Part shown: piece by piece, positions 17,259 through 63,547 of the stretch
Numbering within the stretch: position 1 is the first letter of the stretch
Layout: every line of letters starts with the position of its first letter
From: a marine bacterium B5-7
GTDB lineage: Bacteria; Pseudomonadota; Gammaproteobacteria; Arenicellales; CAJQKF01
Length of the DNA: 64,000 nucleotides
Direction: 5' to 3'
Assembly: GCA_021604525.1 (NCBI GenBank)
Contig: BQJD01000014.1
Location: 4,256-68,255, forward strand
Notes under the pieces: generated by a model
What the model was told of the DNA's origin: nothing
The model's input: the letters and a program-made list of their open reading frames with translations, nothing else
Databases searched by the model: none
Translations under genes and position numbers: made by a program

Positions 17259-17306
17259 AAGCCCAAAAAGGTTTTCATCCGGACCTTAGGATTGTGATTC
17301 ATGAGG

Positions 17307-31235: not shown

Positions 31236-33419
31236 ATGGCAACGACGAGTCAATACAAGCCGCTTGAAGATCTGGATGGGGCGAGCGGGAACGAACCGTT
31301 TGACGATCTCGGCGACACTGGCGACATGAATATGGACAGTGAATCCGTCAGCCACTCACACGACAGTGAAACTGAGCGACCTGCGGTTTCCACTATAAAG
31401 CGCCGTTCGAAACGTCGTGGCGGACGATTCATCGTGTTTCTGCTGGCCTTGTTGTTGGTATTCGCGGTGGGTGCGCTGGTGGTGAACGTAACCCTCGAAG
31501 CACGACGCAGTGCCATTGAAGCCAATCAGGTGGAGATCAGTTCACGTCTGTTGATGTTGTCGCAGCGACTTTCAAGACAGGCCCGCGAGGCAACGCTTGG
31601 CGACCCGGCCGCATATCCAGGGCTCGAGGATTCGCGCGATGCGGTAAATGGAATTTTGGCCGCGCTGGATCTGGGTGATAGCGAGATTGATATCGAGCCG
31701 CTTGTGGGCGAATCACGACTCCTTTTGCAAGCGGTCAGTGGAACCTGGCAATCGGTCCGCGGCAACACCGAGACGATTCTTGGAAATCGTGACGCGGTAT
31801 TGTCAATTCGTGAAGCTCGCGATACCGTTAATGAGCTGGTTCCATTACTGCTCGCACAATCCGACGAAGTCGTCGAGGAAATGGTTGTTGAGCAGGCCGA
31901 TGCGTCGCTGATTAATCTTGCCGGCCGGCAGCGAACGCTGACTCAGCGTATACGTGCGTCAGTCAATGAGTTTGCGTTGGGCGAATCCGGGGCTGAAGTG
32001 GCGGCAACCCAGTTTGGTCGCGATCTCAGATTGTACGGGCGTACCGTGCGACTACTTGAAAGTCGGGTATCACCACCCGTAGCTGCCAAGCTGGATAGTT
32101 TGAAGGCGACTTATCAGGAACTTTCCTCTGCTATCGAACAGGTTCTTGGCGGTGTCGCAGAATTTTTCTCGGCGCAGGTTGCCGCACGAGCAATCAACGC
32201 CGAATCGGATGTGTTACTGGAACAGTCACAGCGTCTGGTTCGCTCGATCTCGGACTCGACTCCGCTACCGCTGGTTGAGGAATATGTGCCCGCGAATGTC
32301 GATGCGAATCTCGTCTTCAAATGGCTGCCGTGGGTACTTGGCGCGCTCAGTCTGTTGCTGCTATACATACTCATAAGGATTTTCCTGGGTCGTGCCCAAA
32401 CCGAGGCTCGCGAGAGTACCGAGGAAAACCAGCAGAGCCAGGAAGCTATCATGAAATTGCTCGATGAGATGAGTGATCTGGCTGATGGCGACCTGACGAT
32501 CGAGGCTGAAGTAACCGACCAGATAACCGGTGCGATTGCCGACTCGGTTAACTTTGCGGTTGAAGAAATGCGTAACCTGGTGCGCCGTATTAAAAGTGCT
32601 GCGGAAGCAGTAACAATGGAAACCAGTGGTTCCAGGCAAACCGCTGATAGTCTCGCCCAATCGGCAGACCAGCAGCTCCAGGCAATCAATACGGCAACCC
32701 GCGAAATCCAGCTCATGGCGCAGTCGATGCAGGAACTGTCATCCGATGCCAATCGCTTCACCGAGGTGGCCCGCAGCTCCCGTGATGTCGCCAAACGGGG
32801 TGCTTCTTCGGTACGCCAGACGATCCAGGGCATGAATGACATGCGCCAGCAAATTCAGGAGACGGCAAAGCGTATCAAGCGTCTTGGCGAAAGTTCCCAG
32901 CAGATCAACGACATCGTGTCACTGATCACCGACATTGCCGAGCAAACCAACGTACTATCGCTTAACGCCTCGATTCAGGCTGCCATGGCAGGCGAGGCGG
33001 GTCGTGGATTCGCTGTCGTAGCTGACGAGGTGCAGCGTCTGGCTGATCGTTCAGGACAGGCGTCACGGCAGATCAACGAACTGGTCAATACCATTCAACG
33101 CGATACTAACGACGCGGTCAGCTCCATGGAACAGGCCACCCGTGAAGTGGTCGAAGGCACAAACCTGGCCGATGCTGCCGGCCGTGCACTGGTCGAGATC
33201 GAGCAGGAGTCCGAGCAGCTTACCAATCTGATTCAGGAAACCGCGACCAAGACACTGACCCACTCGAAGACCGCTGCCGATGTATCGAATCGAATGACGA
33301 CCATTCGCAAGACGACCGAAGATGCGGTACAGGGTGTGCGCCGTACTGCTCAGTCGATAAGTAACCTGGACAAGGTGGCGCGCGAACTCGAAGAATCCGT
33401 TAGCGGATTCAAGGTCTGA
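31236..33419 (+). CDS. pilJ: Methyl-accepting chemotaxis-type receptor PilJ
   Basis: 727 aa with an acidic cytoplasmic N-tail, TM, a large periplasmic domain and a second TM/HAMP. Highly conserved MCP signalling hairpin ([37 protein letters not shown]). Confidence 0.9.
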
Positions 33420-33470
33420 CCTGGAATTGACCAGTTTGGCCGTACATCCGGGTAATCGAAGGCAGGCTGC

Positions 33471-39662: not shown

Positions 39663-39889
39663 CCGTTTCCGTACGATCAGACCGCATTCGTACTGCTTAA
39701 TTTATACATTAGATCAAAAACTTTTACTGGAAGTTCATTTTCGTAATAGGCATATTCGAGGCCACCTTATTTCATTGGCGTTGGTAAGTGATCTGCTTTC
39801 AGGCGGTTGGCGCCGTGGCCTGATCTGTCTCTTTGTGCGGACTTTCCATGCCTTCAAGATCACCCGTTTCAAGAGGAAATTACATCATC

Positions 39890-41911
39890 ATGCCAGATGC
39901 GCAACCGGTCACCGAACCGAATCGTCGGGATAAAGCAAACGCCATTCGGGCTCTCGCCATGGATGCGGTGCAAAAAGCCAGATCGGGTCATCCTGGCGCG
40001 CCTATGGGCATGGCTGATATCGCCGAAGTACTGTGGTGTGACTACCTCAAGCATGATCCTCAAGATCCGCAGTGGCCTGATCGGGACCGCTTCGTCCTCT
40101 CCAACGGCCATGGTTCGATGTTGTTGTACTCACTGCTCCACTTGAGTGGTTATGCGTTGACTATCGATGACCTGAAAGCCTTCAGGCAGCTTCATTCAAA
40201 AACACCGGGTCACCCCGAGTATGGTTATGCGCCGGGTGTTGAAACCACTACCGGACCGCTTGGTCAGGGGTTCACCAATGCCGTTGGCATGGCTATCGCG
40301 GAGAAGGCCTTGGCGGGGCAGTTTAATCGTGAAAACTACCCTGTTGTCGATCATTACACCTACGTCTTCATGGGTGATGGCTGCATGATGGAAGGCATAT
40401 CCCACGAAGCCGCATCGCTGGCGGGAACTCTCGGGCTCGGTAAGCTTATTGCCATCTGGGATGACAACGGTATTTCAATCGATGGTGAAGTGGATGGCTG
40501 GTTCACCGATGATACGCCGGCACGATACCGCGCCTACGGCTGGCAGGTACTGGACAATGTTGACGGGCATGACCCCAAGGCCATTGCTGCTGCCATCGAG
40601 GTTGCTCGTGGTCATGACGCGCAGCCGACGTTGATCTGCTGCAAGACGATCATCGGCTGGGGTTCACCCAATAAGCAGGGTAAGGAATCCTGTCACGGTG
40701 CGCCACTTGGCGACGACGAGATTGCATTGGTTCGCGAAGCCATAGGTTGGCCTTATCCGCCGTTCGAAGTGCCAAAGGCAATCTACGATGCGTGGGATGC
40801 GAAGGTGAGCGGTAGCGCTGCACACAGGGACTGGAGTCAGCGTTTTGAAGCGTATCGTGCTGACTACCCGGAACTTGCGGATGAATTTGAGCGACGGATT
40901 GCTGGCGACCTGCCGGCAGGCTGGTCGAGTGGTGTGGCGAAGTTTGTCGATGACACCCGTCGAGATGCGGCAACCATTGCCAGTCGCAAGGCGTCCCAGA
41001 ATACACTCAACGGATTTGGTCCACTGCTGCCGGAACTCATTGGTGGTTCGGCCGATCTGGCCGGTTCCAACCTCACTCTTTGGTCCGGATCGAGGCCATT
41101 GTCGCGTAGTTGCGATGACGCTAATTATATTTATTTCGGCGTGCGTGAATTCGGCATGTCGGCGATGCTCAACGGCATTGCCCTGCATGGTGGATTCATC
41201 CCCTATGGCGCGACATTCCTGATGTTTTCCGAATATGCTCGAAACGCCTTGAGAATGGCGGCCCTGATGGGTGTCGGCTCGATTTTCGTCTATACCCATG
41301 ACTCGGTCGGCCTCGGTGAAGACGGCCCAACCCATCAGGCCGTGGAGCAGACCGCGACCTTGCGCATGATGCCGCGTATGTCAGTGTGGCGGCCATGCGA
41401 TAGTGTCGAGAGCGCGATAGCATGGCAGCATGCCATTGAACGTCGCGATGGACCGACGTGCCTGCTATTTTCCCGTCAGAATCTACCTTTCCAGGAACGT
41501 TCCGACGATACAGTTGAGGCAATTCATCGCGGCGGATATGTCATCCGGGACTGCCAGGGAACGCCCGAAGCGGTTATCATTGCCACCGGATCGGAGGTGG
41601 CGCTGGCGGTTGACGCGGCCGCGAAACTTACTGAATCCGGGCGTCGGGTTCGAGTGGTATCGATGCCGTCCACTGATGTGTTCGACGCCCAGGACAGCGC
41701 ATGGCGTAATAGCGTGTTACCGGAGACGGTGACCGCTCGAATTGCGGTTGAGGCGGGCGTGTCGGATTACTGGCGTAAATATGTCGGCCTTGAAGGCCGG
41801 GTTGTCGGAATCGATACTTTCGGCGAATCGGGTCCGGCAGATGAAGTGTTCGTGCACTTTGGCTTCACAATCGATAATGTGGTTGCGCAAACGTTAGCGG
41901 TTATCGATTAG
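39890..41911 (+). CDS. tkt: Transketolase
   Basis: Contains [27 protein letters not shown], and a TPP/pyrimidine-binding core. AAGAGGA RBS upstream of the ATG at 39890; the track start at 39833 is an extension. Confidence 0.95.
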
Positions 41912-42099
41912 GTGCACAGCTAGACACGCATCGATATTATCCGATCGTTTAGCCAGATCCATAATTCGATTGGGTAACCTATCAGCTGCTGCGAGAGCCG
42001 CTTAAGCAGGATTTGTGATGGCGGCGTTGCTGGATCAGTTTCCAATTTTTTCAATTTCAAACCCTTATACATTTAAATCAGGTTACACAGGAGTCACCC

Positions 42100-43113
42100 A
42101 TGGCCATCAAGGTTGCGATTAATGGTTTCGGCCGCATCGGACGTAACGTCACGCGCGCGTTGTTTGAAAGCGGACGCCAGGACGAGATAGAGATTGTCGC
42201 TGTTAATGATCTAGGCGATGCAGCGACTAACGCACACCTACTCAAATACGATACTGTGCACGGCCGATTCGGTTTTGACGTCGAGGTTGACGGCGATTGC
42301 TTTGTGGTTGGCGATACACGTGTCAAAGCGTTGGCTGAACGCGATCCCACCAAGCTGCCGTGGAAAGATCTGGGTGTCGATGTGGTGTTGGAGTGCACCG
42401 GGCTTTTCACCAGCAAGGCCAAGGCTGGCGCACATCTGCAGGCTGGCGCCAGTAAGGTTATTATCTCTGCGCCCGGAGGCAAGGATGTTGATGCAACCAT
42501 CGTTTTCGGTGTTAATCACGACGTGCTCAAATCGTCGGACACGGTTATCTCCAATGCCTCCTGTACTACCAACTGCCTGGCGCCGCTGGTCAAACCCTTG
42601 AACGATACCATCGGTCTTGAATGTGGATTGATGACGACCATTCATGCGTATACCAATGATCAGGTGCTGACCGATGTCTATCATTCAGACTTGCGGCGCG
42701 CGCGATCTGCAACCCAGTCCATGATTCCCACCAATACCGGCGCAGCAGCAGCCGTTGGCCTGGTGCTGCCGGAGTTGAACGGCAAACTGGACGGCTTCGC
42801 GGTGCGTGTGCCGACTATCAACGTATCAATGGTTGATCTTACCTTTCATGCCAAAAGGGCCACCAGTGTCGACGAGGTTAATGAGATCATGAAAGCTGCC
42901 TCGCAAGGCGAGCTGAAAGGTATCCTCGCGTACAACGACTCTCCCCTGGTGTCGGTTGATTTCAACCATTCTGCGGTCTCGTCAACCTACGATTCATCAA
43001 TGACCCGGGTAGTCGGTGGAACCACGGTCAAGGTCTGTTCCTGGTACGACAACGAGTGGGGCTTTTCCAATCGCATGATCGACACGACCATCGCATTGAT
43101 GAATGCGGCTTGA
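42100..43113 (+). CDS. gap: Glyceraldehyde-3-phosphate dehydrogenase
   Basis: 337 aa with INGFGRIGR, the active site SCTTNCLAP, and WYDNEWGFS. Confidence 0.95.
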
Positions 43114-43362
43114 TAAAACCTGGTTGACACTGGCGCATTAGAGCCCGCTATTGCAACGCTCATGTAATGGTATGTACACAGAGTTTCAATTCGCGGGTTT
43201 TAATATCAATAGTATTCAGCCTTGAATGTTTCAGCGAAGAGAGAACGAACGGGTAATCCGATTTCCATTTCAGGTTAGTCTACTTTGTGAATTCTTCGAA
43301 GATCATCATTGATTTATTACTGCCGCGTGTACCCGGTAGGCATATTACGGATAGATAGAATC

Positions 43363-44541
43363 ATGGCCATCATCAAGATGACAGATCTCGATCTGAACGG
43401 GCAGCGGGTGCTGATTCGCGAAGATCTGAACGTGCCGATCAAGGATGGTGAGGTAACCAGCGATGTGCGAATTCGTGCCGCCTTGCCAAGCATACGTCAG
43501 GCCCTCGACGCAGGTGCGCGAGTGATGCTCATGTCTCATCTCGGCAGACCTGATGAGGGAGAATATGACGAGGACCTGTCTCTGGCGCCGGTGGCGGCAC
43601 ACCTGTCAGATCTGCTCGGTGTGGAGGTGCGTTTTACCCGTGATTGGCTGAACGGCGTCGAACTCAACGATGGCGAAGTGGTGATGTGCGAAAACGTTCG
43701 CTTCAACATCGGTGAGAAAGCGAATGATGAGGCACTCAGCCGTCAGATGGCGGCGCTTTGCGATGTGTTTGTCATGGATGCCTTTGGAACCGCCCATCGT
43801 GCTCAGGCATCCACTCACGGCGTGGCCCGCTTCGCGCCGGTTGCCTGTGCCGGACCGTTACTTGCCAATGAGTTGGAGGCTCTTGGAAAGGCGCTCGATA
43901 ATCCTGCCCGACCCTTGGTGGCCATTGTCGGCGGTTCCAAGGTATCCACCAAATTGACGGTTCTTGAAAGCCTGTCAACGGTCGTCGATCAGCTCATCGT
44001 AGGCGGTGGTATTGCCAACACGTTTATTGCTGCAGCGGGTTATTCGGTTGGTAAATCATTATACGAACCCGATCTCGTCGACGAGGCCCGTCGTCTTAGT
44101 GAGCAGGCTAAAGCGCGTGGTGGTGATATACCCGTGCCGGTGGATGTGGTGACTGCAAAATCGTTCGACGAATCAGCCGAGGCGACCCAAAAACGGGTGG
44201 ATCAAGTCGCAGATGATGACTTGATACTCGATATCGGCCCACAAACGGCTGAACAGTTTGCCGCTATCCTGGTCACTGCCGGTACTATTGTCTGGAACGG
44301 CCCGGTCGGCGTATTCGAGATCGAACAATTCAGCGAAGGAACGCGGCGGCTGGCGGCGGCAATTGCAGAGAGCCCGGCATTCTCCATCGCTGGAGGTGGC
44401 GACACCCTGGCGGCGCTGGATCGTTTCAGAATCGCCGATCGCATTTCCTGTATATCAACCGGTGGCGGAGCTTTTCTCGAGTTTCTCGAAGGCAAGGAAC
44501 TGCCCGCTGTCGCCATACTTAAAGAACGCGGCACGGGCTGA
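43363..44541 (+). CDS. pgk: Phosphoglycerate kinase
   Basis: Contains [18 protein letters not shown] and GGGDT motifs. The start is trimmed from 43309 to the ATG at 43363. Confidence 0.95.
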
Positions 44542-44601
44542 ATTCTGTCGTGCCAATCACTAATTTAATATTACTTTCAAGATTTCCACGAGGCTGACCC
44601 A

Positions 44602-45666
44602 ATGGCACTGATTTCCCTTCGACAATTGCTTGATCATGCGGCTGAGAACGACTACGGATGCCCGGCGTTCAACGTCAATAATCTGGAACAGATGCGCGCC
44701 ATCATGGAGGCTGCGGACGAGACCCAAAGTCCCGTCATCGTTCAGGCCTCGGCGGGCGCACGTTCCTATGCAGGCGCACCGTTTTTAAGGCATTTGATCG
44801 AGGCCGCTATTGAAGAATGGCCACATATCCCGGTGTGTATGCACCAGGATCATGGCGCATCGCCAGGTGTCTGCCAACGATCCATTCAACTCGGTTTCTC
44901 CTCAGTGATGATGGATGGCTCGCTGGGTGAAGACATGAAAACGCCGATGGACTATGACTATAACGCCTCGATCACCCGACGCGTGGTGGACATGGCTCAT
45001 GCCTGTGGCGTCTCGGTGGAAGGAGAACTGGGCTGTCTCGGTTCACTAGAAACTGGTGAAGCAGGTGAAGAGGACGGCTCGGGCGCTGAAGGCAAGCTCA
45101 GCCACGATCAACTATTGACCGACCCGGAGGAGGCCGCGCAATTTGTTGCCGATACCCAGGTTGATGCGCTTGCCATTGCAATTGGCACCAGCCATGGTGC
45201 TTATAAGTTCAGCCGGCCGCCGACAGGCGACATCCTCGCAATCGAGCGGATCAAGGAAATCCACGCGAGGATTCCTGACACCCATTTGGTGATGCATGGT
45301 TCAAGCTCGGTTCCACAGGATTGGCTAGCCATCATCAATGAATATGGCGGCGATATGGGTGAGACTTATGGCGTACCTGTTGAAGAAATCGTCGAAGGTA
45401 TAAAACACGGTGTCCGCAAGGTGAACATCGATACTGACCTGCGCATGGCGTCCACCGGTGCGATTCGTAAACATTTGCAGGAAAATCCAGCTAACTTTGA
45501 TCCAAGAAAATATCTTGCTGCCGCCACAGCCGCAATGAAGCAGATTTGCAAGGAGCGTTACGAAGCATTTTCGACTGCCGGTCAGGCGCCGAAACTACGT
45601 GCCTTGAGTCTTGAAGCGATGACCTCACGCTATGCCAGTGGTGAACTCGATCCAAAAGTAAATTGA
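44602..45666 (+). CDS. fba: Class II fructose-bisphosphate aldolase (Calvin-cycle/CbbA type)
   Basis: 354 aa with [30 protein letters not shown] and VMHGSSSVP. Confidence 0.94.
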
Positions 45667-47346: not shown

Positions 47347-47491
47347 GGAATGTTCAGGTTCTATGATTCAGGGCTTAACAAGTCCAAATGGGTAGCATGT
47401 TCACCAATGGTGATATGGTAAATAAGTATTAAATAATATATTAATGATTCTTCGGTTCCAGTTCAGTTTCAATTACCCGGGAGAATTTCTC

Positions 47492-48073
47492 ATGAAGCGA
47501 AACCATTTAATTCCAATCCTCGTCAGTCTGGGGCTATTTGTGGCTCCCACCTTGAGTATTGCTCAAACGGATTCAATAGCCGGGCAAATGCCGGGCGGTT
47601 ATGATTTTTCTGCATTGTCGCAAATGTTTGCCGTGCCCCAAGGCGTACCACAACTCAACATGTCGACACCGAACGGTATGGCCGCGTTCATGAACCCGAC
47701 GCTATACGCGCAGATGATGAATCCGGCATTCTATACACAGATGATGTCACCAGGCTTTTATACCCAATTCATGAATCCGCAAAACTGGATGTCATGGTTT
47801 AATCCATCTGCTTATTCATCGTGGGTAGATTCGGCAACGTATCTGCAGGCGATGAATCCGATGTCCTATATGCAATTCATGAATCCCCTGACTTACTTGC
47901 AGTGGGCTAACCTCAACAATTACATGGGCTATGTGAATCCATCGACTTACACGCAGTGGCTGAATCCGGGCGCCTATCAATTTGGCAACACGTCAACGTC
48001 AACCGGTCAGGCTACCGACGCCAACTGGTTTGATCCCGCGGCCTGGTCTAAAGAAGTCGAAAAGACGGAATAG
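47492..48073 (+). CDS. Secreted nonapeptide-repeat protein (NPxxY repeats), unknown function
   Basis: GGGAGA RBS 7 nt upstream of the ATG. Sec signal peptide MKRNHLIPILVSLGLFVAPTLSIAQ, then 11 tandem 9-aa repeats. Paralogous to the ORFs at 57408 and 58067. Confidence 0.8.
   Translation: MKRNHLIPILVSLGLFVAPTLSIAQTDSIAGQMPGGYDFSALSQMFAVPQGVPQLNMSTPNGMAAFMNPTLYAQMMNPAFYTQMMSPGFYTQFMNPQNWMSWFNPSAYSSWVDSATYLQAMNPMSYMQFMNPLTYLQWANLNNYMGYVNPSTYTQWLNPGAYQFGNTSTSTGQATDANWFDPAAWSKEVEKTE
47687..47983 (+). repeat. 11 tandem 27-nt (9-codon) coding repeats, consensus [FMW]-M-N-P-x-x-Y-x-Q
   Basis: Read directly: FMNPTLYAQ MMNPAFYTQ MMSPGFYTQ FMNPQNWMS WFNPSAYSS WVDSATYLQ AMNPMSYMQ FMNPLTYLQ WANLNNYMG YVNPSTYTQ WLNPGAYQF. 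Confidence 0.9.
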
Positions 48074-48173: not shown

Positions 48174-48557
48174 ATGTATGGATTTTTTAAGACGTTAGAC
48201 GGTACCGTAGACGACGTCAAAGCGGCGGTGGTCAATGCACTCGCTGAAGAAGGCTTTGGCGTGTTATCCGAGATTGATGTTAAAGCGACTCTTAAAAAGA
48301 AGCTCGGTATTGATCGGCTCCCATATATTATTCTCGGTGCCTGCCAACCTGCCTTGGCGAATCAGGCAATCGAAGCGGAACCTGACATCGGTCTGCTTCT
48401 GCCCTGTAACGTGCTTGTACGGGAGGAAGTTGACGGTAGCGTATCGGTAGGGTTTATCGATCCTGAAGCCATGCTCAGTGTGACCGGTCGCGACGACCTG
48501 AAGCCGTTCGCGAATGAAGTGCGAAATCTCCTCGAACGGGTTCGTGACAGGCTTTAA
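48174..48557 (+). CDS. DUF302 domain protein (no signal peptide)
   Basis: 127 aa. GFGVLSEIDVKATLKKKLG...YIILGACQPALANQAI...LLPCNVLVRE matches my recollection of the DUF302 pattern. Confidence 0.78.
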   Translation: MYGFFKTLDGTVDDVKAAVVNALAEEGFGVLSEIDVKATLKKKLGIDRLPYIILGACQPALANQAIEAEPDIGLLLPCNVLVREEVDGSVSVGFIDPEAMLSVTGRDDLKPFANEVRNLLERVRDRL

Positions 48558-48616: not shown

Positions 48617-49195
48617 ATGCAACTTGAAGAGGTCAAACCCGGGAGTTTTATTTACCGCCGTCGACAGGCGCTGGAAAACAATTTTTGTGATGATGTTGTT
48701 GCACGATTCGAGCATGCTGTGGACGAACAATATCCTGGACGAATTGGCCAGGATCAACAGAGCCATGCCGACATCAAGAAAACGGTTGATCTTCGGGTAT
48801 CCGGTAAACCGCAGTGGGCGGATGTCGATTCGACGCTGTTTGAATCGTTGCGGAATTCGTTGTCAGAAGTTTGCGCGGTACATCCGTTTTTCTCAAGCAA
48901 TTCATTCAAGGATCATGGATACAATCTGCAGCGATACAGGGCAGGTGAATATTATCGCTGGCATGTAGATGCCGGCCCCGGGCCTTTCAGTCAGAGACAG
49001 CTCGTCGCCATCTGGTATCTCAATAATGTCGATGGACCAGGCGGTGAAACCGAGTTTGCGTTTCAGGATATCAAGATTAAGCCAACTGCCGGCGACCTGC
49101 TGTTATTCCCGCCGTTCTGGACCCATGTTCACCGCTCAATCGAGCTTCAAGCGGGTAGTAAGTATATTGCCACGACCTGGGTATGTTTTAGCTGA
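48617..49195 (+). CDS. 2OG-Fe(II) oxygenase, prolyl-4-hydroxylase-like
   Basis: 192 aa with the HxD facial triad WHVDAG, distal His in FWTHVHRS and a basic 2OG-binding residue in SKYIATTW. Confidence 0.78.
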   Translation: MQLEEVKPGSFIYRRRQALENNFCDDVVARFEHAVDEQYPGRIGQDQQSHADIKKTVDLRVSGKPQWADVDSTLFESLRNSLSEVCAVHPFFSSNSFKDHGYNLQRYRAGEYYRWHVDAGPGPFSQRQLVAIWYLNNVDGPGGETEFAFQDIKIKPTAGDLLLFPPFWTHVHRSIELQAGSKYIATTWVCFS

Positions 49196-49287: not shown

Positions 49288-49719
49288 CTACCGTCTCCGG
49301 GAATGCAGTGCCGCAACTTCATGGATAATGATGCCATAGGGGAGATCCTTTAAGCTGCCGAAGTGTTCCTCGGCAAGGCTGGTCAGTTCGTTCACGTCGT
49401 TAATCGCAGCGTGCCCCGTATCTTCAATAATTATTCGCAGACCATTTAACGCCCCCATCTCATAGCGAAAGCGCTGCGCAAATGACATGGTGTCGATATC
49501 TATTCTGCCGTGGTTGAGAAACCGGCCCTTATCAATAACGGTCTCGAGAAGCTCACGACAACGTTGTAAGCAGTAGCTGTTATCGCAGTTAATCTCTTCA
49601 CGTTCAGCGATGATCGCGCGTTCAGCATGCAGGCATTGAAAGCGTCTGGCTTTAAGTGCTCTCTCGAAGACGCAGATTCTGGCGGCCGGGTTGCCGACAG
49701 ATTCCGATTTGTCATTCAT
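49288..49719 (-). CDS. Hypothetical protein with a Cys-rich N-terminal half
   Basis: 143-aa ORF with balanced composition and five Cys in the first 55 residues. No recognised motif. Confidence 0.45.
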   Translation of the reverse strand: MNDKSESVGNPAARICVFERALKARRFQCLHAERAIIAEREEINCDNSYCLQRCRELLETVIDKGRFLNHGRIDIDTMSFAQRFRYEMGALNGLRIIIEDTGHAAINDVNELTSLAEEHFGSLKDLPYGIIIHEVAALHSRRR

Positions 49720-49857
49720 TGCCGTTAGCTATCAGAGCGTGCTGTCGTATTGCCAGCTAAATTGTGATTCGAAACTTGAGGTATCATCATGCGGTGGTGC
49801 GATAGTGGTTGGCGGGTGAATATATTGGAGCACAATGCCTTGGGAACGCAAAATTTA

Positions 49858-50073
49858 TTAGTCGTCTTCTGAAGGAATACGTTCACGACGAGTCCGGAGT
49901 AGCACTTCGGCGTGTTCCTCGTCGTTGGCAAAAACCATTTTGTATTCGATGATGTCGGACGATTCATCCAGGCGTTGCAAGCGTACCTGTCCTCGCGCTT
50001 CACGATAATCATCATGGTGACCAAGACAGTGGTATTCGCGATGATTGTTGATCTGGAAAACGAAGTAGGGCAT
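49858..50073 (-). CDS. Small hypothetical protein (71 aa), His/acidic-rich
   Basis: ORF with a plausible GGAG upstream. Its ATG shares the CATG tetranucleotide with a plus-strand ATG. Confidence 0.4.
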   Translation of the reverse strand: MPYFVFQINNHREYHCLGHHDDYREARGQVRLQRLDESSDIIEYKMVFANDEEHAEVLLRTRRERIPSEDD

Positions 50074-50104
50074 GTTATTTTCAAACTCCGTGCGGAGACA
50101 TTAC

Positions 50105-50440
50105 ATGAACGATAGCGAATCTGCTGCAAACGACGGCAACCGTACCGAGCGGCGTGTGTTGAGTGTCATGAGAGATATTTTAACGCGTGTTGCGCGAGAG
50201 ACCGCCACAACTCCGGGTACACGCCATGTTTTAACGGATGAAACCATAGAACAGATTCGCCATTGTCTGTCCCTCATCAGTGCCCGGGAAATGGAACTTG
50301 CAAAAGACCCTGACGAGATTTCTGCCAACAGGCCTCGTTATCCAGGACAGACGAGCCGTCGCGACAAAGTCCGGCTGAGCATTCAATCAATTACTGGCCA
50401 GTCTGGCAGTTCTGACAAGGATGATTCATCAGAGCAATAG
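50105..50440 (+). CDS. Hypothetical protein (111 aa)
   Basis: GGAGA RBS 6 nt upstream of the ATG at 50105. Hydrophilic, no recognised motif. Divergent from the 71-aa ORF with only 31 bp between the starts. Confidence 0.45.
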   Translation: MNDSESAANDGNRTERRVLSVMRDILTRVARETATTPGTRHVLTDETIEQIRHCLSLISAREMELAKDPDEISANRPRYPGQTSRRDKVRLSIQSITGQSGSSDKDDSSEQ

Positions 50441-50563: not shown

Positions 50564-51043
50564 TCAAATAAACAACGATACATCTGACTCGCCGGCATGT
50601 TCGAAGTAGGTTGCAGCGCCACCCAGCTCGATCTCGTCGATGAAGTCGCTTCGTTTCATATCAAACAGATCAATAGTCATCTGGCAGCCGATCAACTTCA
50701 CATCGGCTTCGATGCACAAGGACCTCAAATCTTCGATAGAAGCAACACCCTTGCTTTTTATCTTGTTCTTCATCATTGAAGTCATCATGGTTTCCATACC
50801 TGGAAGGGCGGTACCGAGAACCGGAAACCATTTATCCATCCCAAGCGGCATGGGCATGCCCGGGTTCCCCAAGGGACTCACTTTAAGATTCAGTTTTTTT
50901 CGTAGTAATTGTAGTCCGTAAAAGGTAAAAAACATGGTCGTTTCATACCCCAATGCCGCGGCAGTCGATGCGAGAATGAAAGGCGGGTAGGCCCAGTCGA
51001 GCGTGCCTTTGGTTGCGATTATCGTAAGTTTTTTCTGATTCAT
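50564..51043 (-). CDS. DsrE/DsrF-like sulfur-relay family protein (soluble, DsrE3-like)
   Basis: Begins MNQKKLTIIATKGTLDWAYPPFILASTAAALG. GGAGA RBS upstream of the ATG at 51043. Immediately downstream of tusA. Confidence 0.78.
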   Translation of the reverse strand: MNQKKLTIIATKGTLDWAYPPFILASTAAALGYETTMFFTFYGLQLLRKKLNLKVSPLGNPGMPMPLGMDKWFPVLGTALPGMETMMTSMMKNKIKSKGVASIEDLRSLCIEADVKLIGCQMTIDLFDMKRSDFIDEIELGGAATYFEHAGESDVSLFI

Positions 51044-51086
51044 GGAAGTATCTCCAGCGACCATGGAGGTCGCACCGGTAAAGTCT

Positions 51087-57407: not shown

Positions 57408-57956
57408 ATGAAAATATTCTCAACCATAGGGCTTTTGCTCGCATTGACGACTTTCAACACCGGCACCCATGCACAAATGCCGATGCAAATGCCGAATCTG
57501 GGTGGGTTCTTCGGTGGCCAGCAACAGGCCAATCCGTTTGCCGGACAGCAAGCCAACGCGTTTACCAACATGATGGCACCCATGGGCATGATGGGTGGTG
57601 CCAATCCCATGATGATGATGGTTAATCCGGCTAACTGGCTTAATCCTAATGCCTACGCCCAGTTTGCAAACCCCATGAGTTACATGTCGATGATGAACCC
57701 GATGAGCTACATGGCAATGATGAATCCGATGACTTATCTGCCCATGATGAATCCGAACTCATACATTCAGATGATGAACCCAGCGCTTGGCCTTGCCGGC
57801 GTACAGCCCATGGGAAACATTGCGGCTATCGACCCCAACACATACTGGCAAGTGCTGGTGCAACTACTCGGTGGTATTCATGGTCAACCTGAAACCAGCG
57901 AAGGTTTTCTCGACAAACTCAAGGAAATTGGAGAAAAGGTCGCACCTGAACAATAG
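57408..57956 (+). CDS. Secreted Met-rich NPxxY nonapeptide-repeat protein, paralogue of 47492
   Basis: Signal peptide MKIFSTIGLLLALTTFNTGTHA. Repeats are NPNAYAQFA NPMSYMSMM NPMSYMAMM NPMTYLPMM NPNSYIQMM. About 26 Met in about 160 mature residues by my count. Confidence 0.8.
   Translation: MKIFSTIGLLLALTTFNTGTHAQMPMQMPNLGGFFGGQQQANPFAGQQANAFTNMMAPMGMMGGANPMMMMVNPANWLNPNAYAQFANPMSYMSMMNPMSYMAMMNPMTYLPMMNPNSYIQMMNPALGLAGVQPMGNIAAIDPNTYWQVLVQLLGGIHGQPETSEGFLDKLKEIGEKVAPEQ
57603..57782 (+). repeat. Coding repeat tract, N-P every 9 codons (five regular units preceded by irregular ones)
   Basis: N-P dipeptides occur at residues 66, 73, 79, 88, 97, 106, 115 and 124 of the ORF. Confidence 0.85.
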
Positions 57957-58066: not shown

Positions 58067-58522
58067 ATGAAGTCTTTCAAGGTCACGTACATAACGGGAG
58101 TTTGCCTGTTGGCAAGTTCATTTCTGCCTGCCGCCGTATCCGCCCAGAATCAATCTGCCAATTCTGCAATCCACAGTTTGCAGCAGACTCTGAGTACCGA
58201 TGCCTATGCCGGTATTTTAAAGGCGATGGTAAATCCGGCAACTTTAAAAAACCCGGTAGTCGTGTGCGCTCAATGTCATTCCGATGAGGATGCGGCACGT
58301 TACAGTAAAGTACTTGGGCCAATGCTGCAGATGGCCAATCCACTTAACTGGGTTAATCCAATGGCCTATGTCAACATGGCGACACCGATAATGGATCCGG
58401 AAACCTATGCCGAGTGGTACAAGGCATACACCAAAAAATATGGTGGCCTGTTGGGTTACAACCCGGACACTGCTGCCGGGGAGACAACAGCCGACCCTGA
58501 AACCAAGGATCCCACAGAGTAG
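58067..58522 (+). CDS. Secreted protein with one CxxCH haem-c motif plus NPxxY-type repeats
   Basis: Signal peptide ending AAVSAQ. CAQCH lies at nt 58265-58279, followed by MANPLNWV NPMAYVNMA TPIMDPETYAEW. Confidence 0.75.
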   Translation: MKSFKVTYITGVCLLASSFLPAAVSAQNQSANSAIHSLQQTLSTDAYAGILKAMVNPATLKNPVVVCAQCHSDEDAARYSKVLGPMLQMANPLNWVNPMAYVNMATPIMDPETYAEWYKAYTKKYGGLLGYNPDTAAGETTADPETKDPTE

Positions 58523-58637
58523 TAGTTTTGGCTGACAATATGCGCAGTGTCTATGGCTGGCTCGTATCGGCTATTGGTGGGTTGTAGCCATTTTGAGACA
58601 GGTTCCAGGAACAGACAAAAAACAGGAGGATGCTAAA

Positions 58638-59369
58638 GTGAAGAGAGTCATCGGTTTCATCTTCGCTCTTATCGTTTCGGTGAGTTTGTGTGCCCAGGCA
58701 CAACAGGACAGCTTCAGTGTGCCTGAAGGGGCAAGTGATGAAGTGCGCGATGCATTACAGCCACATCCAGAACTTGGTGATCGGTTGTTGTCCGATCAAC
58801 CGGACGAGATTCAGGAGATCATGCGTGCGCAACTCGTAGAGCAGAGTAATCGACCATTGCCGCCAGTCCCGGCCGCGACCAAGAAGCAGTTGTTTGATCA
58901 GCTTACGGCAGTGAGTGGTTTGGGAATGCGTGACCTGTTTAACTTCATGACATCCAAGAAAAAGGTTGCTGAGGGTATTACATTCGATGAGGTCATAGAG
59001 GCCATGTTGATCAAGGCGAATGAAGTGAATTTCAAGAATGTTGGACACAACTTGTTCTGGAAAGATGCCTCCGCAGTGACAGGTGTTCCGGCACTGCGAG
59101 TCGAGATTCTACAATTCTGCGACGCTGTGGTCGGCCGTCGGATGCTCGATTTCAGCCCGGAGTTTTCGATTTTTATTCCCTGTCGTATTACCGTTATGGA
59201 AGATGCCACTGGTGATATCTGGCTAATGACAATGGACTGGGATGTCAGTTGGCTGGCAAATGCGTGGCATCCGGACTCTGAACTGAGCGATCAGTTAAAA
59301 GCCGATGCGGTACGTATTCGTGATTCGATGGAAGCCATTATGCAAGCTGGTGCTAATGCTGAGTGGTAG
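58638..59369 (+). CDS. Secreted DUF302 domain protein with an N-terminal extension
   Basis: AGGAGG RBS 8 nt upstream of the GTG at 58638. Signal peptide VKRVIGFIFALIVSVSLCAQA. The C-terminal half (ILQFCDAVVGRRMLDFSPEFSIFIPCRITVMEDATGDIWLMT) is DUF302-like. Confidence 0.7.
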   Translation: MKRVIGFIFALIVSVSLCAQAQQDSFSVPEGASDEVRDALQPHPELGDRLLSDQPDEIQEIMRAQLVEQSNRPLPPVPAATKKQLFDQLTAVSGLGMRDLFNFMTSKKKVAEGITFDEVIEAMLIKANEVNFKNVGHNLFWKDASAVTGVPALRVEILQFCDAVVGRRMLDFSPEFSIFIPCRITVMEDATGDIWLMTMDWDVSWLANAWHPDSELSDQLKADAVRIRDSMEAIMQAGANAEW

Positions 59370-59427: not shown

Positions 59428-60543
59428 TTACTGGCCACCGCATGCAATTCGTAACTCGTCGCATACCGGGTCGAGTACAGGTGCCAGTTGCTTACGCATC
59501 AACGAGCCAACCGCGGAGCTTTTTACACAATAGTCGCGGATGAGTGAATCGCCTGCCATCGATAAAAATCGTAGCGCGTAAACTCTTTTTTTCAGTTCAA
59601 CCGGAAAAACACCAAAGCCTGGCGAGGAGTGTTCAGTCAGTCGTTGGTGTATCTCATCAATACTGGCGCATTCTTCGCCAGGTGGCCGTAGTGGAGCCAG
59701 GGTTGATGTAATAACTCCAAGGCAGGCGCTGACGATTTCCTGGTCGGCTGCCTGTGTCAGTACTTTCTCGGTGACTCTGCAAAATTGTTGTCCGGGCGTA
59801 TCGAGTAACAGGGGCATCAAGTTCCCGAAGTCATTCCCGGTATCAACTGACGATGTGCCCCGGTTCCATGTGAGTGACGGATCGGTGCCGTGATTTCTGT
59901 ATTGGCCGGTTTTCATAACCGGTGGAAGATTAAGGGGTCGCGCCATCAGGAAACCAAGCAGGATACTGGTTTTTCTTTGGGCCCGCCGCCACAGTGAATT
60001 GACGATATCGCCATCAATACTTGCTACTTTGAGAATGAGTGCCGTATCCCGCGCCACCATTAAATATTCAGTTTCAAATGGCAGGAATTCAAGGAGATAG
60101 TCAGCGACCTCCTGACCGATCGACGCTTCGCAAATACGGTCATGTTCGAGTAGAAAACGCGCTGTTTCCGATGACTGATAGGCCCACCAGACTTTGGCCG
60201 CCGTTGTCGGATCAAGTGTCGTTGCCGCGGCGACTGCAATCACCGCTTCCGGTTCCCCCAGCTTTAACAGATCGTTCAAGCGGTTACTCTTGACTTGCCG
60301 CATTCTCGTCCAGCGCGACAGAAATCCTGGATAGCCTGAAGGTGAGTCGATTGCCTGGCTGGACAACAGTTCCCGCACCTTTTTAAGGTAGCGTTGGTTT
60401 TGTCCAGCCACATTCAAACGTACCATGTGTTCGGTATCTTCCCCGAGTCCGTACACCGTCATGGTCGCTTCGTCGATGCGAATGGCATCGGAGCGGGCGA
60501 TAAGAACCTGTAGACGCAGGGCATCCTCGGCATTCAGTTCCAT
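59428..60543 (-). CDS. Hypothetical cytoplasmic protein (371 aa) ending in CDELRIACGGQ
   Basis: Long ORF with balanced composition and no motif I can name. Its size and context are compatible with what is reported for DsrS, but I cannot verify similarity. Confidence 0.62.
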   Translation of the reverse strand: MELNAEDALRLQVLIARSDAIRIDEATMTVYGLGEDTEHMVRLNVAGQNQRYLKKVRELLSSQAIDSPSGYPGFLSRWTRMRQVKSNRLNDLLKLGEPEAVIAVAAATTLDPTTAAKVWWAYQSSETARFLLEHDRICEASIGQEVADYLLEFLPFETEYLMVARDTALILKVASIDGDIVNSLWRRAQRKTSILLGFLMARPLNLPPVMKTGQYRNHGTDPSLTWNRGTSSVDTGNDFGNLMPLLLDTPGQQFCRVTEKVLTQAADQEIVSACLGVITSTLAPLRPPGEECASIDEIHQRLTEHSSPGFGVFPVELKKRVYALRFLSMAGDSLIRDYCVKSSAVGSLMRKQLAPVLDPVCDELRIACGGQ

Positions 60544-60687
60544 CGGCCTTGCCTGTGTAATGACGCACCACCACGATAGGGGGCGCTAATGGAGATATTA
60601 GAAATCACTAAAGGCGGCTGCTGTTCTTAAATCAAATGAATTGAGATAATACCTGAGTTGTGTATCACTTATCTCAGAGGAATTATC

Positions 60688-60882
60688 GTGAACGAGGCTT
60701 ACTACAAAACCGTTGATGAGCTTGAAAAAATGGGCGTTGATGCTGACTATATCAAAGGCTGGATGGGTGGATTTTTAGGAAATCCCCATCGTGAGGAGCA
60801 GCGTGTAACCGATGCGTATACGGCAGGTTATGAAGACGGCCAGAGTCAAACAACCAGCAAAGCCGAACAGTTCAAGCATTAA
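60688..60882 (+). CDS. Small hypothetical protein (64 aa from the GTG)
   Basis: AGAGGA RBS 7 nt upstream of the GTG at 60688. Hydrophilic. The track ORF starts at 60658. Confidence 0.4.
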   Translation: MNEAYYKTVDELEKMGVDADYIKGWMGGFLGNPHREEQRVTDAYTAGYEDGQSQTTSKAEQFKH

Positions 60883-60967
60883 TCAGCAAGCTGAGTAACC
60901 GAATCCTGAAAGGAAAGGTTGTAGCAAATTGGGTATTGATCGATCCGTTATTCACTGATTGACGGTG

Positions 60968-61570
60968 TTACTCCGGGGGATTCATATTGGACATGACGTT
61001 CGCCGTACCAAAAAGACTATCCATACCGTTTTTAAGTTCGAGCACCGCCTCCGGGGCATCGATTTCCATCACCTGATCGATCACCCAGCGGTTGGCCTGG
61101 GTGTCCCCCATGAGGTCCTGGGCATGTCTGCCGAGGCCTCGCATCATCGTGTAACCGGGTTGGTTGCTGTCAAAACCGTAGGCGGAATATTCTTCGATAC
61201 GGTTGTTGACAAGTTCGATGAATCGGCTGCTGTAGTCCGATCCATGACCATAGACATCTTCGAGATTGCGCTGATAATGGCGTGCCGCCTGTTGCGCTAA
61301 CGTGCTCACAAACGCTGCACGCGCATCTGCATCAAGGGATGTGAAAGAAAGCCGGTCGGCAACATGTATGAGAAAGCAAAGATATTCAGCAAGTACGCCG
61401 GTTCGCTGGTCGTCGTCTTCATAGTCGAAGTCTTCGCGATGCAGGTTCCTGGTTTTGTCGAGAGCAATTTGCCATGCTATGTATGCAAGGGCGGTGGCGT
61501 TTTCTTCTAGCGTGACATTACTTTTTGAGTCCCGCCACTTACTGCGTACTCTCAGGTGCTTGTTGGACAT
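60968..61570 (-). CDS. Hypothetical protein (200 aa)
   Basis: Uninterrupted ORF with helical-looking, balanced composition and no recognised motif. The antisense ORF at 60959..61300 looks like a shadow. Confidence 0.55.
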   Translation of the reverse strand: MSNKHLRVRSKWRDSKSNVTLEENATALAYIAWQIALDKTRNLHREDFDYEDDDQRTGVLAEYLCFLIHVADRLSFTSLDADARAAFVSTLAQQAARHYQRNLEDVYGHGSDYSSRFIELVNNRIEEYSAYGFDSNQPGYTMMRGLGRHAQDLMGDTQANRWVIDQVMEIDAPEAVLELKNGMDSLFGTANVMSNMNPPE

Positions 61571-61675
61571 GTTTAAATAGTGAGGCGATTATGGCAATAC
61601 ATCACGCGACCTGTTTTCCTTATTGAACAGCGCATGCTAGTTTATCATGCAGATTACCTTAAGCTGGTTTAAAAG

Positions 61676-62713
61676 ATGCACCCCGCAGAATCCCGCCTGA
61701 TATCCGAAGTGCAGTACAACTGCGACGTATCCGATGCGCGCTTCGCCGGCAATTATACGATGTGCGTGTACTTGTTAAAGATGCGTGAATACTATCGATG
61801 GCGTCATGGGTTCGGCTTCGCTGAAAATCTGTCGATGAGCGACGTCGGTGAATGGGTTCAGCAAACTGAAAGCCTGTGGGAAACTCTGGAAGACAGGCAG
61901 CATACACCGCTGATTGTCGATGGTACTTCATGCGATGTCTTTGATGATGAACGTATAAATCAACGGTTGCCTGACCGATGTCTGTTTAGCAGTGGAATCG
62001 GACGATTCGGCAAGCCGGTATTCGTTTTGGCGGAACTTGTCGACGTCAGGCATGTGGATGGCATGACCGTGCACATCGCCGGCCGTGAGTTTGCCAGGGA
62101 GCTGTCAGCACCGCCGGCCATGATCAGACAGAACCGACTATTTATTCGTCGGGAAAGTCTTGAGAGAATGCTGTGGGAGACTGTCGAGGAATGGCGCTGG
62201 CATCGGCGACCAGGGCCCATGGCCAACGTGGTTGCACACTATGATTTCGATCGTGATGAATCAAAGGCATTGTCTGATCTGCTCAATGATCAGTTGGAGC
62301 AAATGCTGCTACATGAAGTCGGTGAGTTTCGTGCCGGTCAACTGCTTGGCGATGACTGGGACAAGTTGATACTTGAACATGCCGGCAGTCAGGTTGAAAC
62401 GATCGCGCGCGCCATACGCGACTGTCTTGCCGACTGCCTGGAAGTTATTCCGCAACTTGCTGAATCGTCCCGCCGAGAATTATTGGACTTTTATATTGCC
62501 GTGTTGACACCGCTGCGTCGGGAGATGTTTCCATCAATTATTAAAGCGTATCACCAATGGCTCGATGACGGATCGCTGGGTTCTATCATCGATGTTGCCG
62601 AGAACGGTCGGCAACATTTTGAGTCCCTGGCGCGTGAACTCCTTGAATTGCATCGTAACGGATTGTTGAGCGATGCCCTTTACATGCCTCATTTTCGCCA
62701 ACAAGCGTTATAG
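61676..62713 (+). CDS. Hypothetical protein (345 aa)
   Basis: Uninterrupted ORF, soluble, no recognised catalytic motif. Divergent from the 200-aa ORF. Confidence 0.6.
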   Translation: MHPAESRLISEVQYNCDVSDARFAGNYTMCVYLLKMREYYRWRHGFGFAENLSMSDVGEWVQQTESLWETLEDRQHTPLIVDGTSCDVFDDERINQRLPDRCLFSSGIGRFGKPVFVLAELVDVRHVDGMTVHIAGREFARELSAPPAMIRQNRLFIRRESLERMLWETVEEWRWHRRPGPMANVVAHYDFDRDESKALSDLLNDQLEQMLLHEVGEFRAGQLLGDDWDKLILEHAGSQVETIARAIRDCLADCLEVIPQLAESSRRELLDFYIAVLTPLRREMFPSIIKAYHQWLDDGSLGSIIDVAENGRQHFESLARELLELHRNGLLSDALYMPHFRQQAL

Positions 62714-62875: not shown

Positions 62876-63547
62876 ATGCTCGTGACCATAGAAAAGTTGA
62901 TATCGCCGCAAGAGGTCATGGAGGTTCGACGTATCCTTGATGAGGCGACTTTTGTATCGGGACGTGTCAGCGCTGGCAAGCGGGCCGCTGCAAGGAAAAA
63001 AAATTCAGAAATTCCTGTCGGCGCGAATTCGCTTGATTCGCTCAACCGGATAGTGATGGGTGCATTGGTGCGTAATGAAACATATCGTCTGGCGACCTTG
63101 CCACTTAAAGTCGCCGCTCCATTTTATGCACGTTATGTTTCCGGTATGTACTACGATTCACACATTGATGATCCGGTGATGGGAGACGGTCCACGATATC
63201 GATCCGATGTATCGATCACCATTTTCTTGAATGCGCCGGAGGAATACCAGGGTGGGGAATTGTGTATTGATACTTCCTTTGGCGAACAGCGGATCAAGCA
63301 AAGCGCCGGTAGCGCGGTTTTATATCCATCGTCGACCCTTCACCGTGTTGATGAAGTGACAGGTGGTGAGAGGCTGGTTGCTGTGACCTGGCTGCAAAGC
63401 ATGGTGCGCAGTGAAGCTCAGCGCGAGCTGCTGTATAAATTGGCCATGGCCCGTGATCAACTGTTTTGTGAACTTCCTGATAGCAGCGCTTGCGCCACGG
63501 TCGAACAGACCTATGTCAATCTTGTGCGAATGTGGAGCGAGGTATAG
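62876..63547 (+). CDS. Fe(II)/2OG-dependent PKHD-type hydroxylase (PiuC/YbiX-like)
   Basis: 223 aa with HIDDPV (HxD), STLHRV (distal His) and RLVAVTW. The N-terminus MLVTIEKLISPQEV is typical of the family. Confidence 0.83.
   Translation: MLVTIEKLISPQEVMEVRRILDEATFVSGRVSAGKRAAARKKNSEIPVGANSLDSLNRIVMGALVRNETYRLATLPLKVAAPFYARYVSGMYYDSHIDDPVMGDGPRYRSDVSITIFLNAPEEYQGGELCIDTSFGEQRIKQSAGSAVLYPSSTLHRVDEVTGGERLVAVTWLQSMVRSEAQRELLYKLAMARDQLFCELPDSSACATVEQTYVNLVRMWSEV

What the first reader, a model, noticed from the sequence alone, without database searches (positions are those of the whole stretch)
59428..62713. Four consecutive unannotatable genes in strictly alternating orientation (-,+,-,+)
The genes are 371 aa (-), about 64 aa (+), 200 aa (-) and 345 aa (+). 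They form two back-to-back divergent pairs with short shared promoter regions of 144 bp and 105 bp. All are predicted soluble. None has a motif I can assign, and all lie between the sulfur genes and a PiuC-like hydroxylase. The alternating architecture implies at least four promoters in 3.3 kb, and hence independent regulation.
Basis: seen in the sequence. Interest (0 to 1): 0.55.

Follow-up and report, generated by a model that had tools for sequence, protein, structure and literature searches.

The report
Conserved dsrS-linked sulfur-oxidation accessory gene cluster
The four alternating genes are a detached dsrS, an Alvin_2107-family sulfur-oxidation protein, an unnamed ~195-aa family and a DUF6866 protein, kept together in the same orientation in many marine sulfur-oxidising bacteria; this ties two uncharacterised protein families to stored-sulfur oxidation.

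Summary
Four soluble-protein genes lie at 59428-62713 in -,+,-,+ order, with divergent spacers of 144 and 105 bp. "Unannotatable" is wrong for three of them.

- **A** (371 aa) is DsrS. It is 37-47% identical over its full length to proteins named DsrS, and three of those homologues are the last gene of dsrL-J-O-P-N-R-S operons.
- **B** (64 aa) passes the NCBIfam model "Alvin_2107 family globule sulfur oxidation protein".
- **D** (345 aa) passes the Sfum_1244 and DUF6866 models.
- **C** (200 aa) has no Pfam, NCBIfam or PDB relative. It still belongs to a real family found in 491 species genomes.

C and D both gave confident AlphaFold models with no PDB fold match.

The neighbourhood is conserved. 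Over 81 related loci, D is divergently adjacent to C in 53 of 78, B is convergently adjacent in 49 of 78, and the full four-gene arrangement in the same orientation occurs in 20 of 69. PKHD-type and other 2OG-Fe(II) oxygenases and sox genes are often nearby.

Best reading: a cytoplasmic accessory module of reverse-Dsr / sulfur-globule oxidation. Each gene has its own promoter, but the genes are inherited, and probably used, together. The biochemical roles of C and D remain inferred. I rate this as moderately interesting.

The parts
59428..60543 (-). dsrS, detached from the dsr operon (371 aa, soluble, pI 5.7)
   Evidence: 1960 homologues. The named ones are 'sulfur reduction protein DsrS', 37-47% identical over 96-100% of the length; homologues P0064, P0083 and P0080 are the last gene after dsrL-J-O-P-N-R. 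There is no Pfam or NCBIfam model for this family.
60544..60687 (.). 144-bp divergent control region between dsrS and gene B. It holds a -10-like GATAAT at 60645-60650, 37 nt before the B start, and an AGAGGA ribosome-binding site.
   Evidence: a TAATAT-like box at a similar distance upstream of B recurs in many lineages. This is a consensus match only, with no transcript data.
60688..60882 (+). Alvin_2107-family small acidic protein (64 aa, no Cys)
   Evidence: NCBIfam NF049856, 97.6 bits against a cut-off of 60, E 3.9e-28; 54 distinct homologues share YY..lE..Y.qGW.GG.lgNP.REEQR..aY.aGyeDG.
60883..60967 (.). 85-bp convergent spacer between B and C
   Evidence: The scan found no terminator-like site inside this spacer. 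Its only nearby hit, on the - strand at 60866-60854, lies inside the end of gene B. Several other lineages carry a clear bidirectional terminator hairpin here.
60968..61570 (-). Gene C: an unnamed ~195-aa family with a predicted six-helix bundle and a basic, disordered N-terminal tail (R7, W12 invariant)
   Evidence: No Pfam, NCBIfam or PADLOC hit. Relatives in 491 species genomes. 547 representative clusters, none of the 150 listed carrying an added domain. AlphaFold pLDDT 89.3, pTM 0.84. No PDB match by sequence or fold (best E 0.11, TM below 0.35).
61571..61675 (.). 105-bp divergent control region between C and D. It holds the palindrome GCATG-N9-CATGC at 61632-61650, enclosing a -10-like TAAACT on the minus strand.
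   Evidence: a TAAAAT/TAAACT box occurs in this spacer in most lineages, often inside short inverted repeats. The palindrome is not statistically unusual in the window.
61676..62713 (+). DUF6866 / Sfum_1244-family protein (345 aa). Invariant C16, C30, H213-E214-x-G216-E217 and D249/D253.
   Evidence: DUF6866_N E 1.3e-53, DUF6866_C E 1.7e-55. NF045620, 393.7 bits against a cut-off of 150; list of invariant residues. AlphaFold pLDDT 92.9, pTM 0.90; no PDB relative by sequence or fold.
62876..63547 (+). PKHD-type 2OG-Fe(II) dioxygenase. Same strand as D and a frequent fifth member of the cluster.
   Evidence: 2OG-FeII_Oxy_3 plus PKHD_C; NF003974, 227.7 bits against a cut-off of 143; a homologue is present in 25 of 72 related loci; where present it lies on D's side of C, usually directly after D.

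Best explanation
The four genes form a conserved cytoplasmic accessory module of the reverse-Dsr / stored-sulfur (globule) oxidation pathway of sulfur-oxidising Gammaproteobacteria. The module sits directly after the soxXYZA-thioredoxin-DUF302 block.

It contains:
- dsrS. From my own knowledge of Grimm et al., this is a non-essential factor that raises dsr expression after transcription.
- An Alvin_2107-family small protein. From my own knowledge of Weissgerber et al., it is abundant and induced on reduced sulfur compounds in A. vinosum.
- Two partners that have never been studied: the unnamed helical protein C, and DUF6866.

Most likely mechanism (inferred). A, B and C are acidic, lack conserved Cys or His, and are probably non-catalytic. 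They would act through protein-protein contacts to adjust the amount or assembly of the Dsr machinery. DUF6866 has an invariant Cys pair and a His/Glu/Asp cluster, so it would be the one enzyme or thiol/metal protein of the set. It often works alongside the 2OG-Fe(II) oxygenase encoded next to it. Each gene has its own promoter. The two short divergent spacers would allow paired induction.

Shown here: the family identities, solubility, synteny, taxonomic range and the absence of known folds. Inferred: every biochemical role.
For: Identities.

Synteny over 81 loci from species-level genomes: D divergently adjacent to C in 53 of 78; B convergently adjacent to C in 49 of 78; DsrS after B in 23 of 72; all four in the same orientation in 20 of 69.

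Carriers are sulfur oxidisers: Arenicellales, Acidiferrobacteraceae, a Thioglobus MAG, Chromatiaceae, Sedimenticola, lucinid symbionts and a Rhodocyclaceae MAG.

The module abuts dsrABEFHC in L001. SoxA lies within a few kb in about 25 loci. In the window it follows soxX, soxY, soxZ and soxA, and a DsrE2-like gene lies about 9 kb upstream.

Literature: Alvin_2107 sits next to the soxYZ cluster in A. vinosum (PMC3368242). dsrS outside the dsr cluster is already recorded in Acidiferrobacteraceae and Thioalkalivibrio (PMC5024460, PMC5328954).
Against: There are no expression or genetic data for this organism, or for C and D anywhere.

Linkage is lineage-dependent. C stands alone among housekeeping genes in 16 of 69 loci, in Chromatiaceae, lucinid symbionts and sponge-associated Arenicellales. 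DsrS is the least constant member; it is lost or fragmentary in L018 and L023-L027.

The 80 loci examined are the best matches out of 491, so they are biased toward close relatives.

The Sfum_1244 family is named after a locus tag that I take, from memory, to be from Syntrophobacter fumaroxidans. If so, D is not confined to sulfur oxidisers.

The roles of DsrS and Alvin_2107 quoted here rest on papers I could not open.
Confidence: 0.65

Rival explanations
1. There are two modules, not one. C, DUF6866 and the 2OG-Fe(II) oxygenases form a separate unit, for example an oxygen- or iron-dependent hydroxylation system with its substrate or partner. This unit merely tends to lie beside sulfur genes, while dsrS and the Alvin_2107 gene are the only true sulfur-oxidation genes here.
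For: C-D pairs occur without DsrS in more than 30 loci. The PKHD-type oxygenase E accompanies D in 25 of 72 loci. The second oxygenase type F appears in 27 loci and even takes D's place next to C in Thiorhodococcus fuscus (L073). D appears to be named after a non-sulfur-oxidiser (the organism is from memory). D's many invariant polar residues look enzymatic.
Against: B, the sulfur-oxidation marker, is the immediate neighbour of C in 49 of 78 loci. Nearly all named carriers are gammaproteobacterial sulfur oxidisers or unclassified Gammaproteobacteria MAGs, with single Nitrospiraceae- and Muproteobacteria-labelled MAGs among the 80. In L001 the C-D-B unit lies beside dsrAB without DsrS.
Confidence: 0.2
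2. Chance juxtaposition of four unrelated genes, each with its own unrelated housekeeping role.
For: Alternating orientation alone has a probability of about 0.04 per position in this window. The three larger families show no detectable relationship to each other. In some lineages the genes are dispersed.
Against: The same order and orientation recur in 20 of 69 loci, and pairwise adjacency reaches 63-68% among the 80 best-matching species-level genomes, which carry several order- and family-level labels. Two of the four already carry sulfur-oxidation annotations.
Confidence: 0.05
3. A defence, toxin-antitoxin or mobile-element island.
For: Short genes of unknown function in mixed orientation are typical of such islands. 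A gene with a Cas6 Pfam hit lies near the module in L001.
Against: A to D have no PADLOC hit. Nothing integrase- or transposase-like appeared among the window ORFs I scanned on either side. GC content is flat across the region. The chromosomal position next to sox genes is stable across lineages.
Confidence: 0.02

Closest known systems
dsrNRS tail of the Allochromatium vinosum dsrABEFHCMKLJOPNRS operon
   Same: Gene A is a full-length homologue of DsrS. Its homologues in Endoriftia, Thiodiazotropha and another genome end dsrL-J-O-P-N-R-S operons. dsrS is transcribed from its own promoter in A. vinosum as well (PMC3368242).
   Different: Here dsrS is detached from the dsr genes, is divergently paired with an Alvin_2107-family gene, and travels with two families that are not part of any described dsr operon. 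No dsrAB, dsrEFH, dsrC or dsrMKJOP gene turned up among the window ORFs I scanned.
Alvin_2107 locus of A. vinosum (next to the Alvin_2108-2112 soxYZ cluster)
   Same: Gene B passes the family model, and here too it lies close to sox genes (soxXYZA at 53.6-56 kb) (PMC3368242).
   Different: In the Chromatiaceae loci examined, the C family is not near B, D or DsrS. The four-gene arrangement belongs to Arenicellales/Acidiferrobacteraceae-type genomes, not to the model organism.
Detached dsrS reported in Sulfurifustis, Sulfuricaulis and Thioalkalivibrio genomes
   Same: dsrS lies 'elsewhere in the genome' while dsrABEFHCMKLJOPNR stays together (PMC5024460, PMC5328954).
   Different: Those papers do not describe what lies beside the detached dsrS. 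The partnership with B, C and DUF6866 is not mentioned in any paper I could search.

Membership tests
DsrS | Full-length sequence homology to proteins annotated as DsrS | tested here: met
   E 1e-63 to 1e-88, 37-47% identity, 96-100% coverage; the window protein keeps all 37 invariant columns of a 40-sequence alignment in which it is the reference row.
DsrS | Encoded as the last gene of the dsr operon, after dsrN and dsrR | tested here: not met
   The window gene sits between a DUF302 gene and gene B, with no dsr gene beside it. Its homologues P0064, P0083 and P0080 do occupy that position. Detached dsrS is a recorded variation, so position is typical of the family rather than obligatory.
DsrS | Enhances dsr expression and the rate of sulfur oxidation | not testable with these tools
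   This needs genetics or reporter fusions. The primary papers were not available to me.
Alvin_2107 family (NCBIfam NF049856) | Score above the curated cut-off of the equivalog model | tested here: met
   97.6 bits against a cut-off of 60; model positions 2-59 of 59 aligned.
Sfum_1244 family / DUF6866 | Both Pfam domains and the NCBIfam model above their cut-offs | tested here: met
   181.3 and 188.1 bits against a cut-off of 27; 393.7 bits against a cut-off of 150.
Any described family, for gene C | A match to Pfam, NCBIfam, PADLOC, PDB sequences or PDB folds | tested here: not met
   no hits; best PDB sequence E 0.69; best Foldseek E 0.11; no relationship to D or DsrS.
PKHD-type (YbiX/PiuC-like) Fe(II)/2OG dioxygenase, for the downstream neighbour | 2OG-FeII_Oxy_3 plus the PKHD_C domain, with the NCBIfam equivalog above its cut-off | tested here: met
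   NF003974, 227.7 bits against a cut-off of 143.

The most novel reading that the evidence does not exclude
Gene C and DUF6866, together with the Alvin_2107 protein and DsrS, form a previously unrecognised cytoplasmic complex. This complex would carry out or gate a missing step of stored-sulfur oxidation. One candidate step is accepting or processing the still-unidentified persulfide carrier that brings globule sulfur into the cytoplasm before the TusA/DsrEFH/DsrC relay. DUF6866's invariant Cys16/Cys30 and His/Glu/Asp cluster would be the active site, and the neighbouring 2OG oxygenases would make it oxygen-responsive.
Probability: 0.12. Interest if true: 0.75.

Novelty: new variant of a known kind. 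Interest (0 to 1): 0.45.

Why it matters
DsrS and Alvin_2107 are among the least understood components of reverse-Dsr sulfur oxidation. This pathway is used by abundant marine and symbiotic Gammaproteobacteria.

These two genes are kept beside two uncharacterised families. One has no family model at all, and both have confidently predicted folds with no match in the PDB. That gives concrete candidates for the missing accessory or regulatory steps, and a defined four-protein set to test for physical interaction.

It also supplies a first functional context for DUF6866, and for a family that still needs a model in Pfam or NCBIfam.

Tried and rejected
- **Common ancestry of the large proteins.** Profile-profile comparison of C, D and DsrS found no relationship.
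- **PDB relatives.** None by sequence for A, B, C or D, and none by fold for C or D.
- **Domain fusions.** None of the 150 listed representative clusters of C (of 547 found) carries an added domain; all are 109-283 aa and most about 180-200 aa.
- **RNA elements.** Rfam gave only sub-threshold noise. A hairpin that could sequester the ribosome-binding site of B (arms 60645-60654 and 60678-60687) is no more stable than shuffled sequence (z = -0.4), and no such structure is conserved in 43 other B leaders.
- **Shared operator or regulon.** The C|D palindrome GCATG-N9-CATGC occurs once in the window against 4.8 expected at one mismatch or fewer. My motif search of the C|D spacers recovered only an AT-rich -10-like box. 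The sigma-70 and terminator scans were at background level.
- **Defence island.** No PADLOC hits for A to D.
- **Primary literature.** The papers on DsrS, DsrR and Alvin_2107 could not be opened. Statements about their phenotypes are from my own knowledge.
Full report
**Observation.**
- A: 59428-60543 (-), 371 aa.
- B: the longest ORF is 60658-60882 (+), 74 aa. The true start is GTG 60688, giving 64 aa. It follows an AGAGGA ribosome-binding site, and it is where all homologues begin.
- C: 60968-61570 (-), 200 aa.
- D: 61676-62713 (+), 345 aa.

The divergent spacers are 144 and 105 bp, and the convergent B-C spacer is 85 bp. None of the four has a hydrophobic segment or signal peptide, and all are acidic. 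GC content is flat across the region.

Alternation alone is weak evidence. A crude greedy ORF call of the window, which makes some errors, switches strand at about 35% of gene junctions, so three in a row have p of about 0.04.

**Identities.** "Unannotatable" is wrong for three of the four.
- **A is DsrS.** It has 1960 homologues. The named ones are "sulfur reduction protein DsrS", at 37-47% identity over essentially the full length. Homologues from Candidatus Endoriftia, Candidatus Thiodiazotropha and a third genome are the final gene after DsrL, DsrJ, DsrO, DsrP, DsrN and DsrR. There is no Pfam or NCBIfam model for DsrS, which is why the family scans were empty.
- **B** passes NCBIfam NF049856, "Alvin_2107 family globule sulfur oxidation protein", at 97.6 bits against a cut-off of 60.
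- **D** passes DUF6866_N, DUF6866_C and NF045620 "Sfum_1244 family".
- **C** matches nothing in Pfam, NCBIfam or PADLOC.

The best hit for A, C and D is 100% identical and comes from a MAG labelled "marine bacterium B5-7", an unclassified gammaproteobacterium.

**Gene C is a real family.** A word-indexed search found 90 relatives, all unnamed. A profile search of 1.84 billion representative proteins found 547 clusters. The 150 listed are 109-283 aa, most about 180-200 aa, and none carries an added domain. A scan of one genome per species found relatives in 491 species.

The alignment has 16 invariant positions, listed. They include R7, W12, W33, E62, D72, R73, R84 and W162, and there is no conserved Cys or His.

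AlphaFold gives a confident six-helix bundle behind a disordered basic tail (pLDDT 89.3, pTM 0.84). It has no PDB relative by sequence or fold (best E 0.11, TM below 0.35).

**DUF6866.** The 42-sequence alignment has 42 invariant positions. These include C16, C30, the H213-E214-x-G216-E217 motif, E241, R245, D249 and D253. That density of invariant polar residues suggests an enzyme or a metal/thiol site.

The model is very confident (pLDDT 92.9, pTM 0.90). It has three N-terminal helices, a beta domain (residues 79-158) and a C-terminal helical bundle. Again there is no PDB relative. C, D and DsrS are unrelated to each other.

**Neighbourhood.** I fetched 80 species-level loci around C homologues and two long metagenomic contigs, one of which duplicates a species locus. 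I scored them with tblastn and with HMMs for A to F. Denominators count only loci with enough flanking sequence.

| Arrangement | Loci |
|---|---|
| D divergently adjacent to C | 53 of 78 |
| B convergently adjacent to C | 49 of 78 |
| B anywhere in the flank | 55 of 78 |
| DsrS just beyond B, divergent from it | 23 of 72 |
| All four in the window's orientation pattern | 20 of 69 |
| C without A, B or D nearby | 16 of 69 |

- Carriers of the full arrangement include Arenicellales (two complete genomes among them), a Thioglobus-labelled MAG, an Acidiferrobacter-labelled MAG and many unclassified marine Gammaproteobacteria.
- A PKHD-type 2OG oxygenase (E) is present in 25 of 72 loci; where present it lies on D's side of C, usually directly after D. 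A second, shorter 2OG oxygenase (F) appears in 27 loci. The window's copy of F is 12 kb upstream, at 48617-49195.
- SoxA lies within a few kb in about 25 loci.
- The window's own upstream block (soxA, double thioredoxin, Met/Pro/Asn-rich protein, DUF302) is syntenic in L018 and L023-L027.
- In L001 the D-C-B unit lies beside dsrABEFHC.

Linkage is not universal. In Chromatiaceae, lucinid symbionts and sponge-associated Arenicellales, C stands alone among unrelated housekeeping genes, and DsrS is back in the dsr operon. DsrS is missing or fragmentary at this position in L018 and L023-L027.

**Regulatory signals.** Both divergent spacers carry AT-rich -10-like boxes that recur across lineages.
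- A TAATAT-like box lies about 35-45 nt before the B start. In the window it is GATAAT at 60645-60650.
- A TAAAAT/TAAACT box lies in the C|D spacer. In the window it sits inside the palindrome at 61632-61650.

Nothing stronger survived testing. The palindrome is not unusual, the ribosome-binding-site hairpin of B is no more stable than shuffles and is not conserved, Rfam found nothing, and the generic promoter and terminator scans were at background. None of the four proteins has a DNA-binding domain, and all are acidic.

**Literature.**
- dsrS lying outside the dsr cluster is recorded for Sulfurifustis, Sulfuricaulis and Thioalkalivibrio.
- dsrS has its own promoter in A. vinosum, and its function is described there as unresolved.
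- dsrS is described as non-essential.
- Alvin_2107 lies next to the Alvin_2108-2112 soxYZ cluster. It is cited as a sulfur-oxidation gene in a nematode ectosymbiont study.
- No held paper mentions DUF6866 or Sfum_1244, and none describes what lies beside a detached dsrS.
- The primary papers on DsrS, DsrR and Alvin_2107 were not available. What I say about their phenotypes is from memory.

**Interpretation.** The best-supported reading is a conserved cytoplasmic accessory module of reverse-Dsr / sulfur-globule oxidation. A, B and C are probably non-catalytic partners. DUF6866, often with a 2OG oxygenase, is the likely enzymatic or thiol/metal component.

The main rival is that C, D and the oxygenases form a separate unit that merely neighbours sulfur genes. 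Chance juxtaposition and a defence island are effectively excluded.

**Novelty.** The component families A, B and D are known by name, and detached dsrS is known. The conserved four-gene partnership, and the existence of family C, are not described in anything I could search. I therefore rate this a new variant of a known kind, of moderate interest.

Noticed in passing
window 57408-57956 (+) and 58067-58522 (+): Two secreted proteins just upstream of the cluster share an 'NP..W.NP.AY' segment. The first (182 aa) is an extremely Met/Pro/Asn-rich repeat protein (MMNPxxY repeats). The second (151 aa) carries a single CAQCH haem-binding motif. Neither has a Pfam family. Homologues of the first are syntenic in L018 and L023-L027. 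They could be periplasmic sulfur-globule or sulfur-handling proteins.
   Followed up: partly
window 48617-49195 (+), with 48174-48557 and 47444-48073: A second, short 2OG-Fe(II) oxygenase sits next to a DUF302 protein and a 209-aa protein with no family. In 27 other loci its homologue lies inside or beside the C-D-B-DsrS cluster.
   Followed up: partly
window 50564-51064 (-) and 49288-50129 (-): A DsrE2-like protein (Pfam DrsE_2, E 7e-55) lies next to two small ORFs with no family hit. These may be part of a cytoplasmic sulfur-trafficking set.
   Followed up: no
window 58593-59369 (+): A 258-aa protein has a C-terminal DUF302 domain and an N-terminal hydrophobic segment. It is the immediate neighbour of dsrS and is syntenic in several loci, including 88% identity over the part of it that lies inside L003.
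   Followed up: no
L018 8916-9486; L023-L027: In one deep-sea Arenicellales MAG, DsrS at this position survives only as two short fragments. In related MAGs it is absent, with B followed directly by the DUF302 gene. This suggests recent loss of dsrS from the cluster.
   Followed up: partly
L001 4309-6894: In a 7.2-Mb metagenomic contig the module lies between dsrABEFHC and a flavocytochrome c sulfide dehydrogenase region. It is preceded by a TauD-family dioxygenase and a gene with a Cas6 Pfam hit.
   Followed up: no
window 31236-38735 (+): A PilJ-type methyl-accepting protein is followed by a 1754-aa CheA-like hybrid kinase with three Hpt matches, CheW and a receiver domain. This looks like a Chp-type type IV pilus chemosensory system.
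   Followed up: no
window 39833-45666, 6935-11931, 13390-18845: The rest of the window encodes an autotroph-like core. It includes transketolase, GAPDH, PGK and class II aldolase; cbb3 oxidase components including a FixG-like protein; and polyphosphate kinase with exopolyphosphatase.
   Followed up: no
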